The notes: generated from the letters alone by a model not told the origin. A stretch of 64,000 nt of DNA from Candidatus Woesearchaeota archaeon (GCA_018221205.1 JAAOYF010000046.1:1999-65998); one strand, 5' to 3'. Shown: positions 3,009-48,328, counted from the first letter of the stretch. A program made the numbers and translations.

Positions 3009-3658
3009 TAACTGTCGAGGAACAGCAAGTACTGCTCATAAGCATAGCGAAAAGACTATCAAAACCCCTTATTGCTTATGCTATCGGAGGAACAGCAATG
3101 ATGTTTTTGGGCATAAAGGATACTACAAAGGACATTGATCTTGTGTTTGATCATAGGGCTGAACGGGAGATGTTTAAGAAAGCCATTTCTGAGTTGGGTT
3201 ATGAGAAAATTGATTCAAGAGCTGCCTATGGGGAGAAGAAGAACATTCCTGAGATGTTTTATCGAGACGATGAACGTTTTGATCTTTTTTTGAATGAAGT
3301 CATTTCATTCGTATTCTCAGATGAGATGAAAAAACGTGCGACAAAAACAATGCAGTTCTCTGATAATCTTATCATTAAGGTTGCAGATGTTCACGATCTT
3401 ATTCTTATGAAATGCTCTACTGACAGGGTGAAAGATCAGGATGATGCCCGAGCAATCATTGAACGATCTCCGATTGATTTTAAGATTTGTGTTCAGGAAG
3501 CGAAAGAACAAATTCAATTAGGCAAAGAGAAAGCAGCATTTGAGCTCGGTTGCTTTCTGGAGGATCTTAAGAATGAGCTTAATGTACCTGTGCCCCAAAG
3601 CGCTTTGGATGGTCTTTTCAGCATTGTTAAATCACAAGCTGCGAAGAAGATGAAATAA
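3005..3658 (+). CDS. Minimal nucleotidyltransferase, AbiEii/DUF6036-like toxin candidate
   Basis: AYAIGGTAMMFLGIKDTTKDIDLVF is the GGTA...R.S.DIDL nucleotidyltransferase signature of AbiEii-type proteins. The gene is translationally coupled to the upstream wHTH ORF. Confidence 0.5.
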   Translation: MITVEEQQVLLISIAKRLSKPLIAYAIGGTAMMFLGIKDTTKDIDLVFDHRAEREMFKKAISELGYEKIDSRAAYGEKKNIPEMFYRDDERFDLFLNEVISFVFSDEMKKRATKTMQFSDNLIIKVADVHDLILMKCSTDRVKDQDDARAIIERSPIDFKICVQEAKEQIQLGKEKAAFELGCFLEDLKNELNVPVPQSALDGLFSIVKSQAAKKMK

Positions 3659-3725
3659 GCCAAAGGTTCTACTATCTGGAACGTGGCACCAGCCATCTTA
3701 GAATGAGATATTATGGTTGAACGGT

Positions 3726-3795
3726 GCTTAGCGTTGGGTAAAGCCTGCAGGTATCGGGAATGAGTTGGCTGTGTATATCAGAAAATAATTTTGGA
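3726..3795 (+). repeat. Right copy of the direct repeat, a relic duplicate of the glycosidase gene 3' end (reads KPAGIGNELAVYIRK* in frame)
   Basis: ggtaaagcctgcaggtatcgggaatgagttggctgtgtatatcagaaaataattttgg matches 2237-2302 including the stop-codon context. The two copies bracket the AbiE-like pair. Confidence 0.7.
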
Positions 3796-3863
3796 AAGAT
3801 TTATATATACAATGTAGTTTATTATTAAAATGTATTGTATACTTAATAATCTGGGTGAGTAGA

Positions 3864-4139
3864 ATGGAAGTGGCTATAACAAAAATATCTCGAAATGGAC
3901 AAGTAGTCATCCCTTCTGAAGTCAGGAAGGATGCGGGAATAAAACCATCAACAAAATTCATTGTCTTTAATCAGGATGGAAATATCTTATTGAAGCAGCT
4001 TAGGAAGGAATCTTTAGGCAAAGATATGGAATTGATAGAGAAAGTAATGAGGAGCGAGGAGCAGATTAAGAAAGGCAAAGTCGTGAAGGCTAAAACCACT
4101 ATGAGTGATGCGGATATCGATGATCTTTTAATGACCTAA
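3864..4139 (+). CDS. AbrB/SpoVT (MazE-like) family antitoxin
   Basis: MEVAITKISRNGQVVIPSEVRKDAGIKPSTKFIV matches the swapped-hairpin AbrB consensus (ISSKGQVVIPKEIR..LGI). It sits immediately upstream of a RelE-like ORF. The ORF track starts 3 codons earlier, at 3855. Confidence 0.65.
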   Translation: MEVAITKISRNGQVVIPSEVRKDAGIKPSTKFIVFNQDGNILLKQLRKESLGKDMELIEKVMRSEEQIKKGKVVKAKTTMSDADIDDLLMT

Positions 4140-4140
4140 A

Positions 4141-4386
4141 ATGGAGATTATTTTTTCTGATGAATTCAAGAAAGATTTCAAGAAGATCAAAGATAAACAA
4201 ACCAGATTAAGATTAATCAAACATATCAAGAAATTAGCTTCTTTGCCTGAATCTGGAAAACCATTGAAATATGAGTTGAAGAATCATAGGGGTATAAAGA
4301 TTCCTCCATTTAGAATTATCTATCGCTTAGAGAAAGAGAGGATAGTAATCAATTGTTTTGATCATAGGAAGGATGTTTATAAGTAG
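4141..4386 (+). CDS. relE: RelE/ParE family toxin
   Basis: 81 aa ending PPFRIIYRLEKERIVINCFDHRKDVYK, which is the RelE/StbE signature (R.IY.i.de...V.Vl.IgHRkdvY). Its start is 2 nt after the stop of the AbrB-like ORF. Confidence 0.7.
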   Translation: MEIIFSDEFKKDFKKIKDKQTRLRLIKHIKKLASLPESGKPLKYELKNHRGIKIPPFRIIYRLEKERIVINCFDHRKDVYK

Positions 4387-4467
4387 CACTTTTTGAAACG
4401 TAATATTTATATAACAGTTGTGATATTTTTATTACATATGTTCCAAAAAAGTAACAGGTATAAGATT

Positions 4468-5428: not shown

Positions 5429-5613
5429 ATACTTACAAAATAGAATAGGGTTCTTGATAATACTTACAAATAGGAAAATTTCCAAAACATTTATATAGAG
5501 AGATTGCTAAAAGTACTTACAAAATAGGTTACTTAGTATAGTAATTCGTAGCTTACTTACAAATTAGGTAAAAAATGGAGAAGATTCATACTCAGATACT
5601 TACATATAGGGGG
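5429..5613 (+). promoter_or_regulatory. Array of 5 direct repeats of the motif (A)TACTTACA-N2-5-TAGG upstream of the cassette-1 regulator gene; a sixth degenerate copy, CTTACATTATAGG, lies upstream at 5391-5403
   Basis: Copies at about 5429-5449, 5461-5474, 5514-5536, 5554-5574 and 5597-5613. The same motif recurs upstream of the cassette-2 and cassette-3 regulator genes. Confidence 0.6.
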
Positions 5614-5658
5614 GAGTTAGAATAAGTAGAGGCACTATAGTTGGCTAAACGTAAGGGG

Positions 5659-6237
5659 ATGACAGAGAAAACTCCTGTCTTTGCTAATGAGAGTTCTGTT
5701 TTGCAATTAGTCAACTCTGAATCTGATTCTATTACTGAGTCTCTTGCGTTGATTGAGGAGATATCTAAGAAGCATGGAGTAGATATAGGGCATATCACTG
5801 AGATTCTTGAGCACAAGGACAAATACATTGTTCTTCCTGTAGGTTTGTTCAGGAGTAAACTTGGTCCTTTAGAAGCAGTTGTCGGGTATATGAAAGAAGT
5901 TTTGGACCTTAATCTTTCTCAGATTGCACGTTTATTGAACAGAGATGAGACCACCATATGGACAACCTATCAAAATTCTTGGAAAAAAGGGAAGATCATT
6001 GTTGATCTAGAGCTGAAGGATGTTGATTTTGGTGCTTTGAAGATCAAGAAAGAGAACTTTGTTGTTCCCTTATCTGTTTTTGCCAATAGAGAATTGTCTA
6101 TTCTTGAGGCTTTATGTGTGTACTTACGTGAGAATCATGGTCTGAATTATACTATGTTAGGGAAATTGCTAGAGAGAAATGAACGGACTATCTGGACGGT
6201 AGTCAGCAGAGCAAAGAAAAAGTGGACAGAGAGATAG
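5659..6237 (+). CDS. Cassette-1 regulator, a small protein with two tandem sigma-70 region-4 / HTH_10 (Bat-type)-like HTH units
   Basis: Two repeats match L..LE..V.yl.e..gLsy..iA.LL.RdeRTiWT...RAkKK (LGPLEAVVGYMKEVLDLNLSQIARLLNRDETTIWTTYQNSWKKGK and LSILEALCVYLRENHGLNYTMLGKLLERNERTIWTVVSRAKKKW). An AAGGGG motif sits 4 nt upstream of the ATG at 5659, and the ORF track uses a TTG at 5641. Paralogs lie at 36056 and 46478. Confidence 0.6.
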   Translation: MTEKTPVFANESSVLQLVNSESDSITESLALIEEISKKHGVDIGHITEILEHKDKYIVLPVGLFRSKLGPLEAVVGYMKEVLDLNLSQIARLLNRDETTIWTTYQNSWKKGKIIVDLELKDVDFGALKIKKENFVVPLSVFANRELSILEALCVYLRENHGLNYTMLGKLLERNERTIWTVVSRAKKKWTER

Positions 6238-34663: not shown

Positions 34664-35875
34664 GTGGTGAAGCATATGCGGCATAAGTTCATAGCATGGC
34701 TGTTGATGATTTTCATAGTCTCAAGTATGGCCTTTGCTATAGGAGTTTCTCCTGTCAGGAAAGTCATTGACTTTGAGCCCAATAAAGAAGTTGAATTGGA
34801 CCTTTTGATCAGGAATGATGCTGGATTCGATATCAAAGCATTAGTGTATGCACGAGGAGAATTAGCCGAGTATATCGGCATCAAAGACTCTCTTATGACT
34901 GTAACGAAGGAAGAGTCGCAGAAGAAAGCACGATATGTCATGAAGATGCCTGCTGCTTTTGAAAAACCAGGAGTGCATAAGACAGATCTTGTTGTTGTGG
35001 AGTATCCGAGTTCATTCGGCCAGGAAGGCGAGACTGCTGTTACTGCAACTGCCTCTGTGGTCACTGAGCTATGGGTCAGAGTGCCATTCCCAGGGAAATA
35101 TGCTGAAGCTGACCTCACGATCGACTCAAAAGAGGACAAGGTAGACTTCTACATCAATGTGCTGAACTTCGGCAAGGACGATATCAAAGAAGCAAAAGCT
35201 ACTATCAAGATATTAGGAGCGACGTATGAAGAGATCGCTGCTGTCGAAACACAAACAATCAGTATCAAAGCGCAGGATCAGGCACAATTGATCACTAGCT
35301 GGATCCCTAATGTCAATCCTGGAAGATATCATGCGATCGCTGAGATCGAGTATGACGGCAAGAAGATCATCTTAGAGAAGAACTTTGAGGTCGGGAAGCT
35401 GTATATCGAGATCAAGCGGATAGATGTCAAGGATTTCAATTTGGGAGATGTCGCTGTATTCGATATCCTCTTGTTGAGCCATTGGAACGAGATGATCCCT
35501 GATGTGTATGGCGAGATGACAGTCCTTGATGCAGACGGAACTGAATATACTAAATTCAAGACAGCCTCTGTTGATGTCGCTGCACAAGAAGAAGCCACTT
35601 TGAAAGCGTTCTGGGACACTGAAGGTATCACTGTCGGCACGTATACCTTACGGTTATTGATCCATTATGCTCAACGCGTTACAGAGAAATTGATTGATAC
35701 AGAAGTGAACATCGATTCTATCACCACTGAACTAGGTCCGACAGCCCAGGTTGTGGCTGAGGAAGGTATTGATCGAGATACTGTCCTCACTGTCCTGGTC
35801 ATCATCTTAGTTATCATCAATATTGTGTGGTTTGTGTACTTCATGAAATCAAAGAAGAAAGGTAAGAAAAAATGA
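34664..35875 (+). CDS. Secreted/membrane Ig-like beta-sandwich protein with a signal peptide and a C-terminal TM helix plus Lys-rich tail; paralogs at 43863 and 46948
   Basis: N-terminal IAWLLMIFIVSSMAFAIGVSP and C-terminal VLTVLVIILVIINIVWFVYFMKSKKKGKKK. Collinear similarity to 43863-45041 (RYHAIAEIEYDGKK...NWNEMIPDVYGEMTVLDADG vs IYRAEAEIDYGGKN...NWNEEIKNVYAELKVKQGEQ). Confidence 0.65.
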   Translation: MVKHMRHKFIAWLLMIFIVSSMAFAIGVSPVRKVIDFEPNKEVELDLLIRNDAGFDIKALVYARGELAEYIGIKDSLMTVTKEESQKKARYVMKMPAAFEKPGVHKTDLVVVEYPSSFGQEGETAVTATASVVTELWVRVPFPGKYAEADLTIDSKEDKVDFYINVLNFGKDDIKEAKATIKILGATYEEIAAVETQTISIKAQDQAQLITSWIPNVNPGRYHAIAEIEYDGKKIILEKNFEVGKLYIEIKRIDVKDFNLGDVAVFDILLLSHWNEMIPDVYGEMTVLDADGTEYTKFKTASVDVAAQEEATLKAFWDTEGITVGTYTLRLLIHYAQRVTEKLIDTEVNIDSITTELGPTAQVVAEEGIDRDTVLTVLVIILVIINIVWFVYFMKSKKKGKKK

Positions 35876-35884
35876 CAAATATAG

Positions 35885-36055
35885 ATACTTACATATCAGG
35901 AGAGATTTTTGCCCGTTCCCTACGGTCACTTAAAAATCTCGTAAAATGCACTCTAGTGAGACATCGCTATCGCGAGTCTCACGGACTAGATACTTACATA
36001 TTAGGTAGTCGAGGTGAGATTGTAAGAGTATCAGATAACTTACAAATTAGATAAT
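35885..36055 (+). promoter_or_regulatory. Three copies of the ATACTTACA-N-TAGG motif upstream of the cassette-2 regulator
   Basis: ATACTTACATATCAGG at 35885-35900, ATACTTACATATTAGGTAG at 35989-36008 and ATAACTTACAAATTAGATAAT at 36034-36055, the last abutting the ATG at 36056. Confidence 0.55.
35902..35949 (+). repeat. Conserved 48-nt palindromic intergenic element, copy 1 (GAGATTTTT-gcccgttccctacggtcactt-AAAAATCTC-GTAAAATGC), followed by a second hairpin at 35955-35981
   Basis: A near-identical block lies at 46310-46358. It has a perfect 9-nt inverted repeat (GAGATTTTT/AAAAATCTC) with inner CCGT/ACGG pairing. The downstream GTGAGAC-N13-GTCTCAC is another inverted repeat. Confidence 0.6.
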
Positions 36056-36610
36056 ATGTTAAAAGACTTGAAAGAGCAGAAAGAGAAGAGGCTTGGTAAA
36101 GTGTATCTGCAGGAAAAGTCCTCTTTAGTGAAGCTAGACAGCCTGTTCTCTGAACTCTCTCAAAAGTATGGCATGGATTATCAAAATGTCGCTCAATTAT
36201 TGAGAAGATTCCAGAGCTATCTCACTATCCCTGCTTCATTGTTCAAGACACGAGTGAGTCCTTTGGAAGCAGTTGTATTATTCTTACACCTTAAGTATAA
36301 GTGTACACAGACACAGATGGCTGAAATCCTTCATAGAGACCATACGACTATCTGGACTACGCTAGATAATGCCTGGAAGAAGACAACCAAAGCACAATTT
36401 CTGCAAAGCATTGAGGAAAGCGAGATATTGATCCCTGTCCACCTGTTATCAAATAGAAGATTGAGCATCTTAGAGGTTGTTGCCTCTTATATCAAAGATA
36501 AATATAGTCTGAAATATCGGGAGATTGCTACTTTATTAGATCGGGATGATCGGACTGTCTGGACTGTTATCGATAGAGCCAGAAAAAAGCTTATAAAGAA
36601 TAGACGATGA
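36056..36610 (+). CDS. Cassette-2 regulator with tandem sigma-70 r4 / HTH_10-like HTH units (paralog of 5659 and 46478)
   Basis: VSPLEAVVLFLHLKYKCTQTQMAEILHRDHTTIWTTLDNAWKK and LSILEVVASYIKDKYSLKYREIATLLDRDDRTVWTVIDRARKKL. There is an ATGA overlap with giant-2. Confidence 0.65.
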   Translation: MLKDLKEQKEKRLGKVYLQEKSSLVKLDSLFSELSQKYGMDYQNVAQLLRRFQSYLTIPASLFKTRVSPLEAVVLFLHLKYKCTQTQMAEILHRDHTTIWTTLDNAWKKTTKAQFLQSIEESEILIPVHLLSNRRLSILEVVASYIKDKYSLKYREIATLLDRDDRTVWTVIDRARKKLIKNRR

Positions 36611-45483: not shown

Positions 45484-46308
45484 ATGAAAAAGAGGTATTT
45501 GTTCATTTTTGCAGTATTATTAGTCATCATAGCATGTGAGGAGCAGGAAGAGTACTCCCTTTGCCCAGATGGCATCACTCAAGTCCTTGATCTCAATGAA
45601 TGTCCTTTGCCAAAGCCCCAATGCGGCAGCTGCGATGATGGAAATGAATGTACGAGGGATATCTGCAATGAAGGAACGAATTACAGCTGTACGTATGATC
45701 TCATCAAACCCTGTGTAGGCAATGGGATCTGCGAGTCTGGAGAGTATCCAGGGGGAATAGACTGCCCAAACAACTGTGAAGATACAGATTCATGCACTCT
45801 GGACAGCTTTGATTTCGCACAGCAGAAATGTATCCATAATTCCATCACCCCTTGCTGCGGGAATGATAAATGTGAAGCCGGTGAAACGTTTGTGTATTGC
45901 CCTGTCGACTGTGAACAGAGGCTTTCTCTTAAAATAACCAATTTTGACCGAAGACAATATGTTTCAGGAGCGTTTATCGATCTGACAGGTACAGACCGCA
46001 CCTATCTTATTGTCACCTTCAAGATCCACAATATCAATATTGATGAAGAAGAAGAGCTTAACTTTGATGTAAAAAATGGCTTTTTGTACGATCCTTTCAA
46101 GATGAGGATAGAAGACGAAAACCAGAGATATTATGATGTCGAGTATGACTCAAATCTTTTGCCAGGGTACTTAGATTATATCATCATCCAAAGGGGCGGG
46201 ACAAAGGGCGCTTCTTTGATGTTTACCATACCTCTTTCTGCACAGCATGTCAGGATGATCGCGTATGATAGATTTGGAAGCAGACTGGACACTGCTGATC
46301 TTTATTAA
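45484..46308 (+). CDS. Secreted Cys-rich protein with a C-terminal DUF4352-like beta-sandwich
   Basis: Signal/lipobox-like MKKRYLFIFAVLLVIIAC. A ~110-aa region holds about 20 Cys (CGSCDDGNECTRDICNEGTNYSCTYD...CCGNDKCEAGETFVYCPVDCE). The C-terminal TYLIVTFKIHN...GASLMFTIPLSAQHVRMIAYD resembles DUF4352. Confidence 0.5.
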   Translation: MKKRYLFIFAVLLVIIACEEQEEYSLCPDGITQVLDLNECPLPKPQCGSCDDGNECTRDICNEGTNYSCTYDLIKPCVGNGICESGEYPGGIDCPNNCEDTDSCTLDSFDFAQQKCIHNSITPCCGNDKCEAGETFVYCPVDCEQRLSLKITNFDRRQYVSGAFIDLTGTDRTYLIVTFKIHNINIDEEEELNFDVKNGFLYDPFKMRIEDENQRYYDVEYDSNLLPGYLDYIIIQRGGTKGASLMFTIPLSAQHVRMIAYDRFGSRLDTADLY

Positions 46309-46309
46309 G

Positions 46310-46358
46310 GAGATTTTTGCCCGCTCACTTCGTTCACTCTAAAAATCTCGTAAAATGC
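46310..46358 (+). repeat. Conserved palindromic intergenic element, copy 2 (GAGATTTTT-gcccgctcacttcgttcactct-AAAAATCTC-GTAAAATGC), followed by a GGAGC-tac-GCTCC hairpin
   Basis: Starts 2 nt after the stop of the 45484 ORF. Aligns with 35902-35949 over ~48 nt, and the 9-nt inverted repeat is perfectly conserved. Confidence 0.6.
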
Positions 46359-46411
46359 GGGGGACATTCGGAGCTACGCTCCTCAATTCCCCTACCGCTG
46401 TTTCTGGTATT

Positions 46412-46484
46412 GTTTACTCATATATATTTACTTTAGGGTAATATTTATAAATAGATATACTTATATGTATATACTAGATGCCTA
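46412..46484 (+). promoter_or_regulatory. Degenerate TACTTA...TAGG motif copies upstream of, and overlapping, the cassette-3 regulator start
   Basis: TTTACTCATATATATTTACTTTAGGGTAATA and ATACTTATATGTATATACTAGATGCCTAGG, the latter spanning the ATG at 46478. Confidence 0.45.
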
Positions 46485-46951
46485 GGAATCTGAGAAAAGA
46501 CAAGCGTTTTCTGCAAATTAGAGAGCTTTTAGAGCAGCTTGAGAAGGATTATGGGATAAGTAAAAAGGAGATTCTTGAGATTTCTGAAGACATCCTGATT
46601 CCGGTCTCGCTTTATTCTTCTGGATTGAGCTCTCTGGAGATCATTGTCAAATATCTGAAGGAGGGCAAGCAGTTTTCTCTTTCAACAATCGCGAAGCTTA
46701 CTGGTAGAAGCAAGCAAGGAGTATGGCAGTCTCTTTCACATGCCCGTAAGAAGCATCCTAAAGCATTCGTTTCTGATGCATCGCCTTATGATTTTCCTGT
46801 TTCCATAATCTCAGACAAGAAACACTCTGTTCTTGAGTCTATTGTCGTGCACCTCAAGGAAGCACATAGCTTGAGCTATGCACAGATTGCTAGACTGTTG
46901 AACAGGGATCAACGAACAGTGTGGACTGTATACAACAAAGTGAAGAAATGA
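46478..46951 (+). CDS. Cassette-3 regulator with tandem sigma-70 r4 / HTH_10-like HTH units
   Basis: LSSLEIIVKYLKEGKQFSLSTIAKLTGRSKQGVWQSLSHARKK and HSVLESIVVHLKEAHSLSYAQIARLLNRDQRTVWTVYNKVKK. Confidence 0.65.
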   Translation: MPRNLRKDKRFLQIRELLEQLEKDYGISKKEILEISEDILIPVSLYSSGLSSLEIIVKYLKEGKQFSLSTIAKLTGRSKQGVWQSLSHARKKHPKAFVSDASPYDFPVSIISDKKHSVLESIVVHLKEAHSLSYAQIARLLNRDQRTVWTVYNKVKK

Positions 46952-48075: not shown

Positions 48076-48094
48076 TAATATTTTTAAAGGAAAG

Positions 48095-48132
48095 GTATCA
48101 AAATGATATATAAAGTATATCAAAATGATATA
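48095..48132 (+). promoter_or_regulatory. Direct repeat (TATCAAAATGATATA x2) in the promoter region of the RHH gene
   Basis: gtatcaaaatgatata at 48095-48110 and gtatatcaaaatgatata at 48115-48132, ending 14 nt upstream of the ATG at 48146. Confidence 0.4.
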
Positions 48133-48145
48133 CTAGTATGCATAG

Positions 48146-48328
48146 ATGAAGAAAAGCGACTTGCTCCACATCCGTGTGGGCAAAGAGATGAAGAAGCAGA
48201 TACAGAAGCTGATAGAGATAGGGCTGTTTTCTACTGAAGCTGAAATCGCACGCGAAGGCATACGAAGCATTCTCCTGAAATATCTGAAAGAGGCTGGTCT
48301 CGAAAAGAAGAATGATAAAAAGAAATAG
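48146..48328 (+). CDS. CopG-family ribbon-helix-helix DNA-binding protein
   Basis: MKKSDLLHIRVGKEMKKQIQKLIEIGLFSTEAEIAREGIRSILLKY matches the CopG pattern (beta-strand; ..ekid.lve.G.f.sRSEaIReAir..l). Confidence 0.55.
   Translation: MKKSDLLHIRVGKEMKKQIQKLIEIGLFSTEAEIAREGIRSILLKYLKEAGLEKKNDKKK

What the first reader, a model, noticed from the sequence alone, without database searches (positions are those of the whole stretch)
35902..35981. Conserved 48-nt palindromic intergenic element present twice, at the 5' boundary of cassettes 2 and 3
GAGATTTTTGCCCG(T/C)TC.CT.CG.TCACT.TAAAAATCTCGTAAAATGC occurs at 35902-35949 and 46310-46358. Both copies sit just after the stop codon of the preceding gene and upstream of the regulator gene. 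A perfect 9-nt inverted repeat (GAGATTTTT/AAAAATCTC) encloses a ~22-nt loop, and each copy is followed by a second, non-conserved hairpin (GTGAGAC-N13-GTCTCAC at 35955-35981; GGAGC-tac-GCTCC at ~46370-46382). Candidates are a structured small ncRNA, an insulating terminator, a recombination or att-like site marking the cassette boundary, or a MITE-like relic. Cassette 1 lacks it.
Basis: seen in the sequence. Interest (0 to 1): 0.6.

Follow-up and report, generated by a model that had tools for sequence, protein, structure and literature searches.

The report
Two-copy intergenic T-tract hairpin, probable terminator
A 48-base palindromic sequence really does occur twice between giant-gene clusters of an uncultured Woesearchaeota archaeon; it most likely acts as a duplicated transcription stop signal shielding the next regulator gene, and nothing found so far marks it as a new RNA or a mobile-element family.

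Summary
A 48/49-nt block lies at 35902-35949 and 46310-46358. The copies differ by 4 substitutions and 1 indel. Each has a perfect 9-nt inverted repeat and is followed by a stable GC-rich hairpin of unrelated sequence.

The window comes from a Candidatus Woesearchaeota MAG. No third copy turned up in the window, in 149 kb of related Woesearchaeota loci, or in the viral, GTDB-representative, JGI metagenome, plasmid and phage collections. Rfam has no match. The rest of the source MAG could not be searched.

The three regulator/giant-gene units are ancient and syntenic, so the block is not an att site. Orthologous spacers upstream of regulator 2 lack it. In the window it sits in a ~105-nt insertion flanked by a 19-nt direct repeat. 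Orthologous spacers upstream of regulator 3 carry analogous T5/A5 hairpins directly after the stop codon in two lineages.

My best reading, at about 0.4, is a lineage-specific, duplicated oligo-T hairpin that terminates or insulates transcription. One thing is unexplained: all four substitutions fall on every third base of the loop and are synonymous in one frame (EIFARSLRSL), yet no conserved ORF exists. Interest is low to moderate.

The parts
35882..35900 (+). Direct repeat DR1 (TAGATACTTACATATCAGG). It is an extra copy of the regulator-upstream ACTTACA motif and forms the left flank of the E1 insertion.
   Evidence: The alignment with orthologous spacers shows it is the supernumerary motif copy.
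35902..35949 (+). Element copy E1. 5' arm 35902-35910 (T5 tract at 35906-35910), loop 35911-35931, 3' arm 35932-35940, invariant tail GTAAAATGC 35941-35949.
35956..35982 (+). Second hairpin after E1 (GTGAGAC / GTCTCAC with inner TCGC / GCGA). Its sequence is not shared with E2.
35987..36005 (+). Direct repeat DR2 (TAGATACTTACATATTAGG), 18/19 identical to DR1. It corresponds to the first of the two motif copies found in orthologous spacers.
46310..46358 (+). Element copy E2. 5' arm 46310-46318 (T5 tract at 46314-46318), loop 46319-46340, 3' arm 46341-46349, tail 46350-46358. It starts 1 nt after the stop codon of gene 45484-46308.
46359..46393 (+). Second hairpin after E2 (GGGGGA...GGAGC-tac-GCTCC...TTCCCC).
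34664..35875 (+). Last gene of unit 1 (403 aa, weak CARDB match, C-terminal TM helix and Lys tail). E1 lies in its 3' flank.
36056..36610 (+). Regulator 2 (184 aa, two HTH domains, Sigma70_r4_2-like), downstream of E1.
45484..46308 (+). Last gene of unit 2 (274 aa). Its C-terminus and stop codon are conserved with orthologues. E2 lies in its 3' flank.
46478..46951 (+). Regulator 3 (157 aa, two HTH domains). Its conserved promoter block, with TATA-like TTTATAAATA at 46444-46453, lies downstream of E2, so E2 is not in its 5' UTR.

Best explanation
The 48-nt block is a lineage-specific intergenic module that ends the upstream co-directional transcription unit and shields the promoter/operator region of the next regulator gene from read-through.

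The proposed working parts are as follows.
- A T5 tract sits at the start of the block. Oligo-U is the archaeal termination signal and is recognised by aCPSF1.
- The tract is embedded in a 9(+1)-bp AT-rich palindrome, so the opposite strand also reads T5. This could stop transcription from either direction.
- A strong GC-rich hairpin follows. It could block read-through or protect the 3' end of the RNA.

Copy E2 occupies an ancestral position: related lineages have T-tract hairpins at the same place. Copy E1 was added later, by a duplicative or templated insertion into the operator-motif array upstream of regulator 2. That insertion would have uncoupled regulator 2 from the giant-gene operon in front of it.

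What is shown: the sequence anatomy, the position relative to stop codons and the TATA box, the absence or presence in orthologous spacers, and the stability of the hairpins.

What is inferred: termination itself, the direction of copying, and any selective benefit.
For: **Position.** Both copies lie 1-26 nt after the stop codon of the last gene of a unit. E2 lies upstream of the conserved TATA/motif block of regulator 3. The block therefore belongs to the upstream 3' flank, not to the regulator mRNA.

**T tract.** The T5 inside the element is the only T run of 5 or more in each spacer. T4-T5 runs follow several other stop codons in the window. T5+ runs occur at about 2.5 per kb in non-coding DNA against 1.0 per kb in coding DNA.

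**Literature.** Archaeal terminators are U4-U7 tracts that need no preceding hairpin and are bound by aCPSF1 (PMC8716108).

**Positional analogues.** The two closest regulator-3 lineages (L043-47 and L048-50) have TAA-TCTTTT(G/A)ATTTTTC...GAAAAAT directly after the orthologous stop codon, followed by a second GC-rich hairpin. All of these fold significantly better than shuffles, with z from -1.9 to -3.6. Other lineages have unrelated T-rich sequence at this position.

**Pattern of differences.** All five differences between E1 and E2 fall in the loop. The arms and tail are invariant. P is about 0.016 for all five landing in the loop by chance.

**Late arrival of E1.** Orthologous boundary-2 spacers lack it: L039-42, L053 and L063, plus L064, where the two genes overlap.
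Against: - There are no transcript data of any kind.
- The T tract is in the 5' arm of the hairpin rather than after a hairpin. This is not the bacterial intrinsic-terminator layout, and the terminator scan did not flag either site.
- A terminator needs only the T run. It does not explain why 48 nt, including the 9-nt tail, are kept at about 90% identity.
- It does not explain why the loop differences fall only on every third base.
- Relatives manage without any terminator at boundary 2. In L064 the two genes overlap. Insulation there is therefore not essential.
- With only two copies, recent duplication cannot be separated from selection.
Confidence: 0.4

Rival explanations
1. The block is a relic of a small duplicative or mobile insertion (MITE-like, or a templated insertion made during break repair) and has no function of its own. 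Under this reading its 90% identity simply reflects a fairly recent copying event.
For: - E1 plus its second hairpin is flanked by a 19-nt direct repeat that is 18/19 identical.
- Orthologous spacers have two motif copies and no element; the window has three motif copies plus the element.
- Motif arrays of this kind are prone to rearrangement. An 85-nt tandem-duplication polymorphism occurs in a related population.
- The short homology AGG..GAGATT occurs at both junctions and again after DR2.
- Logan contig L001 begins 3 nt before DR2. This is compatible with an assembly-graph branch caused by a presence/absence polymorphism.
Against: - Only two copies were found, and no third or degenerate copy appeared in 64 kb plus 149 kb of related DNA.
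- There are no terminal inverted repeats and no flanking repeat at E2.
- The window has no transposase or integrase.
- The sequence next to the 48-mer (hairpin 2) is unrelated between the copies, so a block larger than 48 nt was not simply copied.
- The differences are non-randomly placed: only in the loop and only in phase 3. That argues for constraint rather than neutral decay.
Confidence: 0.2
2. The block is a DNA-level protein-binding palindrome, such as an upstream operator or activating site. It would co-regulate regulator genes 2 and 3, with the two 9-bp arms bound by a dimeric factor and the spacer left largely free.
For: - The arms are perfectly conserved, while the spacer varies in sequence and by 1 nt in length.
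- Both copies lie 107-120 nt upstream of paralogous regulator genes.
- The neighbourhood is dense in another conserved DNA motif, ACTTACAWAW. It has 9 hits against 0.6 expected, and 8 of the 9 lie upstream of the regulators.
Against: - The element is absent upstream of regulator 1 and upstream of every orthologous regulator 2 examined.
- An arm-to-arm distance of about 30 bp with a 1-nt length change is unusual for a dimer site.
- The invariant 9-nt tail and the adjacent strong hairpins are left unexplained.
- The family-wide conserved motif is ACTTACA, not this palindrome.
Confidence: 0.15
3. The block is an independent small non-coding RNA gene or a stable processed 3'-UTR fragment. The RNA would consist of hairpin 1, the tail and hairpin 2, about 85-90 nt in total.
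For: - Both copies have the same two-hairpin layout. Folding energies are well below shuffles: z = -3.8 and -2.7 for the ~95-nt regions and -3.6 and -3.2 for hairpin 2 alone.
- L043 and L048 show the same layout at the orthologous place.
- A G-U closing pair favours the + strand RNA.
Against: - Rfam gives no match at gathering or relaxed thresholds.
- No homologue was found in any collection searched.
- There is no covariation in hairpin 1.
- Hairpin 2 shows no demonstrable homology between the copies, so its apparently compensatory pairs carry no weight.
- No recognisable archaeal promoter lies in front of either copy.
- The T5 tract inside the 5' arm would tend to terminate the RNA's own synthesis.
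Confidence: 0.12
4. The block is, or derives from, protein-coding sequence. It would be the last ten codons (E-I-F-A-R-S-L-R-S-L, then a stop) of a small ORF or of a lost or mobile gene, together with that gene's 3' flank.
For: - All four substitutions fall at element positions 15, 18, 21 and 24. All are synonymous in one + frame and in no other frame.
- P is about 0.008-0.016 for this happening by chance. This test was chosen after seeing the pattern.
- The loop consists of two tandem 9-mers, CGN-TCN-CTN. The four versions differ only at positions 3, 6 and 9.
- In E2 the frame ends in TAA exactly at the start of the 3' arm.
- In E1 a 60-codon ORF fills the spacer from an ATGA overlap to 1 nt before the start of regulator 2.
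Against: - The two putative ORFs share nothing outside the ten codons, and the 1-nt indel shifts them apart after the tenth codon.
- The nucleotide conservation continues 18 nt past the E2 stop codon.
- The 60-aa ORF has no homologue and is not called in any source.
- The peptide occurs nowhere else in six-frame translations of the window or the related loci.
- The overlapping frame is not conserved in the L048 orthologue (read from the sequence).
- The upstream genes end at conserved C-termini, so there is no frameshift extension.
Confidence: 0.08

Closest known systems
Archaeal oligo-U (U4-U7) transcription terminators acting with aCPSF1/FttA (PMC8716108 and the Term-seq studies cited there)
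   Same: A run of five T lies directly downstream of a stop codon at the end of a co-directional gene set. No bacterial-type hairpin-then-U layout is required. T tracts recur after other stop codons in this window and at the orthologous position in relatives.
   Different: Known archaeal terminators are not conserved 48-nt repeats. Here the T tract is one arm of a perfect palindrome and is followed by a conserved 9-nt tail. Termination was not measured.
Bacterial REP/BIME-type intergenic palindromic repeats (from my own knowledge)
   Same: It is a short imperfect-loop palindrome repeated in intergenic DNA at the 3' ends of co-directional genes. Such elements can stabilise upstream mRNA or attenuate read-through.
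   Different: REPs occur in tens to hundreds of copies and are linked to RAYT transposases. Only two copies are known here, no RAYT is present in the window, and the organism is a DPANN archaeon.
MITEs, and PATEs derived from IS200/IS605 (from my own knowledge)
   Same: It is a small non-coding insertion that is absent from orthologous sites. E1 is flanked by a direct repeat. It carries two hairpins and no ORF.
   Different: It has no terminal inverted repeats. The two hairpins are not alike, and only the first is shared between the copies. A 19-nt duplication is unusually long for a target-site duplication. E2 has no flanking repeat. Only two copies are known, and no cognate transposase was found.
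att sites of integrated elements and integron attC sites
   Same: Direct repeats of about 48 nt bracket a 10.4-kb gene set (unit 2). The repeats are imperfect palindromes at cassette 3' ends.
   Different: The bracketed genes occupy the same order and position in distant relatives that have no repeat. No integrase is present. The R''/R' core motifs of attC are absent.

Membership tests
Any Rfam RNA family | Score at or above the family's gathering threshold against its covariance model | tested here: not met
   There were 0 matches at gathering thresholds over the whole window. In E-value mode only chance-level hits appeared, at most 17 bits against thresholds of 40-70.
tRNA or tmRNA gene or fragment (a common att target) | Cloverleaf detected by ARAGORN | tested here: not met
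   No tRNA or tmRNA was found in the window.
Archaeal oligo-U terminator | A run of at least 4-5 T shortly downstream of the stop codon of the last gene of a transcription unit | tested here: met
   T5 lies at 35906-35910, 31 nt after the stop, and at 46314-46318, 6 nt after the stop. It is the only T run of 5 or more in each spacer.
Archaeal oligo-U terminator | Transcript 3' ends map to the U tract, and termination depends on the tract | not testable with these tools
   No RNA data were available.
Bacterial-type intrinsic terminator | A GC-rich hairpin immediately followed by a T run | tested here: not met
   The consensus scan reports no site at either copy. The T run is in the 5' arm, and neither second hairpin is followed by a T run.
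MITE | Terminal inverted repeats at both ends of the inserted unit | tested here: not met
   The ends of the 86-nt E1 insert (AGAGATTTTTG... and ...GTCTCACGGAC) are not inverted repeats. The 9-nt inverted repeat is internal to the 48-mer.
MITE | Target-site duplication flanking each copy | tested here: inconclusive
   E1 has a 19-nt direct repeat that is 18/19 identical. E2 has none. The repeat is itself a copy of a naturally reiterated promoter motif, and such arrays duplicate on their own.
MITE or REP-like repeat family | Many dispersed copies in the genome | tested here: inconclusive
   Two copies lie in the 64 kb of this window. No copies appeared in 149 kb of related loci or in the public collections scanned. 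The source MAG is not in the GTDB-representative or JGI metagenome collections scanned (the window's own copies were not returned), so the rest of this genome remains unsearched.
Integrated element att site or integron attC | The bracketed DNA is an insertion relative to related genomes, and a recombinase is nearby | tested here: not met
   Unit 2 genes are syntenic between the CARDB-like gene and regulator 3 in L039/L040/L048, L053 and L064. No integrase or transposase domain is present in the window.
Structured ncRNA (generic) | Compensatory base changes that support the helices across homologues | tested here: not met
   The hairpin-1 arms are identical in both copies. The inner stem CCGT/ACGG of E1 is broken in E2. 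The hairpin-2 sequences are not demonstrably homologous (P = 0.69).
Small protein-coding gene | An ORF conserved in frame, length and sequence between copies or relatives | tested here: not met
   Only 10 codons are shared, and an indel breaks the frame. No homologue exists and no source calls the gene. However, the substitutions are all synonymous in that frame.

The most novel reading that the evidence does not exclude
The block is a previously undescribed small mobile or duplicative 'portable terminator' of DPANN archaea. It would insert into the ACTTACA operator array of the 2xHTH regulator family, leaving a 19-bp target duplication. It would rewire operons by cutting a regulator loose from the giant surface-protein gene upstream. 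Its loop would additionally be under a triplet-periodic (coding-like) constraint, implying either a second function or an origin from the 3' end of a gene.
Probability: 0.1. Interest if true: 0.5.

Novelty: new member of a known kind. Interest (0 to 1): 0.25.

Why it matters
If the reading is right, this is a small worked example of how gene regulation is rearranged in a reduced DPANN genome. A short T-tract hairpin is copied into the spacer in front of a regulator gene. In relatives that regulator is co-transcribed with, or even overlaps, the giant surface-protein operon ahead of it. The wider value lies mostly in the context uncovered: a conserved three-unit locus of 2xHTH regulators and giant proteins across Woesearchaeota and Nanoarchaeota, with a strongly conserved ACTTACA promoter/operator motif. 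The element on its own, with two copies and no relatives, does not open a new question unless more copies are found in the rest of the genome.

Tried and rejected
**Public DNA scans.** I scanned for ATTTTTGCCCG-N10-25-AAAAATCTCG.
- GTDB representative genomes gave 11 hits and JGI metagenomes gave 26. All lie in unrelated bacteria or coding regions, and none has the extended pattern. I treat them as chance.
- Neither of those two scans returned the window itself, so the source MAG is not in either collection.
- Viral contigs gave 0 hits for two patterns. Plasmids and phages gave no match.

**Related loci.** blastn-short and covariance model R1 against the window and the related Woesearchaeota loci found no further copy.

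**Small-ORF idea.** The 60-aa ORF has no homologue and is not annotated anywhere. A peptide-motif search in six frames found nothing else.

**Frameshift extension of the upstream genes.** Rejected. It would need -1 in E1 but +1 in E2, and the gene C-termini are conserved with their orthologues.

**DGR template/variable repeat pair.** Rejected. The differences are not adenine-specific (T/C, C/A, A/T, G/T).

**Homology of the two second hairpins with compensatory changes.** It looked attractive by eye, but the local alignment score is at chance level (P = 0.69).

**att or integration site.** Rejected on synteny.

**AGATTTTT as an over-represented terminator word.** Not enriched: 6 hits against 5.6 expected.

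**Retrieving the rest of the 75-kb contig.** Two look-ups failed because the proteins are not on record, as did an earlier look-up of a third window protein.

Full report
**1. The observation**

The two blocks exist as described.
- E1 (35902-35949): GAGATTTTTGCCCGTTCCCTACGGTCACTTAAAAATCTCGTAAAATGC
- E2 (46310-46358): GAGATTTTTGCCCGCTCACTTCGTTCACTCTAAAAATCTCGTAAAATGC

They differ by four substitutions and one 1-nt indel.

The match is far beyond chance:
- The degenerate pattern has 0.00 expected matches in shuffles.
- blastn-short gives E about 8e-9.
- A covariance model built from the pair scores them at 73 and 76 bits, with nothing else in the window above 12.8 bits.

The arms GAGATTTTT and AAAAATCTC are a perfect 9-nt inverted repeat, and a G-U pair can extend them. 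The 48-mers fold at -12.5 and -7.3 kcal/mol.

Their z-scores are -3.6 and -3.2.

**2. Context**

The window is from a Candidatus Woesearchaeota MAG. The contig is 75,366 nt and the locus tags are GOV09_057xx.

Three co-directional units each begin with a small regulator carrying two HTH domains, at 5641-6237, 36056-36610 and 46478-46951. The regulators are about 33-35% identical to each other. Each unit contains a giant protein of 9167, 2085 or 2998 aa.

Each regulator has its own orthologues, at 50-63% identity, in other Woesearchaeota and Nanoarchaeota. The order of genes around both element copies is conserved in several of those genomes. The three-unit arrangement is therefore ancient. A 90%-identical 48-mer cannot be a leftover of the duplication that created the units.

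**3. Is it anywhere else?**

No. The searches were:
- Rfam: nothing. tRNA scan: nothing.
- Pattern scans of GTDB representative genomes and JGI metagenomes: only chance hits in unrelated bacteria.
- Viral contigs, plasmids and phages: nothing.
- blastn-short and the covariance model on the related loci (149 kb for the model): nothing.

There is an important caveat. The GTDB and JGI scans did not return the window itself, so the source MAG is not in those collections. The rest of this genome could not be searched.

**4. Orthologous spacers**

Boundary 2 runs from the CARDB-like gene to regulator 2. The results in relatives are:
- L039-42 have an 85-nt spacer with just two copies of a TACTTACA(A/T)(A/T)TTAGG motif.
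- L063 has the same two motif copies, in a spacer of about 170 nt.
- L053 has a 43-nt spacer.
- In L064 the two genes overlap by ATGA.

Aligned to these, the window carries a ~105-nt insertion. It consists of an extra motif copy, E1 and hairpin 2. The extra copy and the resident copy form a 19-nt direct repeat that is 18/19 identical (35882-35900 and 35987-36005). E1 is therefore a gain in this lineage.

This looks like a target duplication, but two things weaken that reading. The duplicated sequence is a naturally reiterated promoter motif. A related population also shows an 85-nt tandem-duplication polymorphism in the same kind of array.

Boundary 3 runs from the 274-aa gene to regulator 3. 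The two closest lineages (L043-47 and L048-50) have, directly after the orthologous stop codon, TCTTTT(G/A)ATTTTTC...GAAAAAT(A/G)AAAAGC. This folds as an AT-rich hairpin with T5 and A5 arms, and a second GC-rich hairpin follows. More distant lineages have other T-rich sequence or other hairpins there. A T-tract hairpin after this stop codon is therefore older than the exact 48-mer.

**5. What it probably does**

E2 lies upstream of the conserved promoter block of regulator 3. That block has a TATA-like TTTATAAATA at 46444-46453, about 30 nt before the ATG. The element therefore belongs to the 3' flank of the preceding unit and not to the regulator's mRNA.

Its T5 is the only T run of 5 or more in either spacer. 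T4-T5 runs follow several other stop codons in the window.

In archaea, oligo-U tracts of 4-7 residues are the termination signal. They need no upstream hairpin and are bound by aCPSF1 (PMC8716108). Because the T5 is one arm of a palindrome, the opposite strand also carries T5.

All five differences between the copies lie in the loop. The arms and tail are invariant (P about 0.016).

I therefore favour a terminator or insulator module, with confidence about 0.4. The bacterial hairpin-then-U layout is not met, and nothing was measured.

**6. What that does not explain**

A terminator does not need 48 conserved bases or the invariant tail GTAAAATGC.

The four substitutions fall at positions 15, 18, 21 and 24. 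The loop is two tandem 9-mers, CGN-TCN-CTN. The four versions of the 9-mer differ only at positions 3, 6 and 9.

In one + frame the block reads E-I-F-A-R-S-L-R-S-L, and every substitution is synonymous. By simulation P is about 0.008-0.016, though the test was chosen after seeing the pattern.

In E2 that frame stops at TAA at the start of the 3' arm. In E1 a 60-codon ORF fills the spacer exactly.

Against a coding explanation:
- The two ORFs share only those ten codons.
- Nucleotide identity runs 18 nt past the E2 stop.
- The ORF has no homologue and is not called anywhere.
- The peptide occurs nowhere else.
- The upstream genes end at conserved C-termini.

I record the triplet pattern as unexplained. 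It could be chance, or descent from the 3' end of a gene.

**7. Rivals**

- **Neutral relic of a duplicative, MITE-like or templated insertion (0.2).** It is supported by the direct repeat and the empty orthologous sites. It is weakened by the copy number of two, the lack of terminal inverted repeats, the absence of a repeat at E2, the absence of a transposase, and the non-random placement of differences.
- **DNA-binding palindrome (0.15).** It fits the conserved arms and variable spacer. It does not fit the element's absence from regulator 1 and from all orthologous regulator-2 promoters.
- **Small RNA (0.12).** The two-hairpin layout recurs. However, there is no covariation, no homologue and no promoter. 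The apparent compensatory changes in hairpin 2 rest on an alignment that is no better than chance (P = 0.69).
- **Coding (0.08).** See section 6.
- **att site.** Rejected on synteny.

**8. Verdict**

This is a real, lineage-specific, two-copy intergenic palindrome. It is most simply read as a duplicated oligo-T hairpin terminator or insulator, and one copy arrived by insertion into the regulator's operator array. It is a new example of a familiar kind of feature, not a new class. The decisive missing step is a search of the rest of the MAG and its reads.

Noticed in passing
window 5431-5607, 35887-35896, 35992-36001, 36038-36047; also L039 5930-6000, L043 2370-2425, L048 2150-2200, L063 7900-7975: The motif ACTTACAWAW (longer form TAYACTTACAWAWTAGG) has 9 exact hits in the window against 0.6 expected. 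Eight of them lie on the + strand in the three spacers upstream of the 2xHTH regulator genes. The same motif sits upstream of the orthologous regulators in distant Woesearchaeota and Nanoarchaeota. It is probably the operator or promoter element of this regulator family.
   Followed up: partly
L055-L059 and L061 compared with L060 and L062 (spacer between the 400-aa CARDB-like gene and the regulator): Contigs encoding an identical regulator protein differ by an exact 85-nt tandem duplication of the motif-bearing promoter region: a 240-nt spacer against a 155-nt spacer. These motif arrays therefore expand and contract within populations.
   Followed up: partly
window 48076-48146; L043 6340-6395: A second conserved motif, TATATCAAAATGATATA, occurs twice upstream of the 60-70-aa gene that precedes giant gene 3, both in the window and in a relative.
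   Followed up: no
window 35872-36054: A 60-codon ORF fills the boundary-2 spacer exactly. Its ATG overlaps the upstream TGA (ATGA), and its stop lies 1 nt before the ATG of regulator 2. Prodigal-type callers called a 29-aa ORF at the same place in L039 and L042 and a 43-aa ORF in L063. These ORFs appear to come from the DNA motif and not from a conserved protein.
   Followed up: yes
L064 871-874: In this Woesearchaeota relative, the stop of the CARDB-like gene overlaps the start of regulator 2 (ATGA). Regulator 2 is therefore in the same operon as the preceding giant-gene unit there, so the 'cassettes' are not independent units in all lineages.
   Followed up: no
L001 position 1 (= window 35984): The only other assembly carrying regulator 2 (Logan, run SRR15671255) is a 947-nt contig that begins 3 nt before the right-hand direct repeat DR2. 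This could reflect an assembly-graph branch caused by a presence/absence polymorphism of the E1 insertion, or it could be coincidence.
   Followed up: no
window 3658-4393: This 734-nt 'spacer' contains two short unlisted ORFs. From reading the sequence, they look like an AbrB/SpoVT-type antitoxin (MEVAITKISRNGQVVIPSEVRKDAG...) followed by a RelE/ParE-like toxin. They lie next to nucleotidyltransferase genes. No profile search was run on them.
   Followed up: no
L043 6240-6300: Another T-tract/A-tract hairpin (CCTGCAAAAGCTAATTTTTGCACAGATTCAAATTCTGTTTAAAAAATGCAGG) lies in the spacer ahead of the giant-gene-3 promoter of a relative. AT-rich T5/A5 palindromes may be a common intergenic device in this group.
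   Followed up: no
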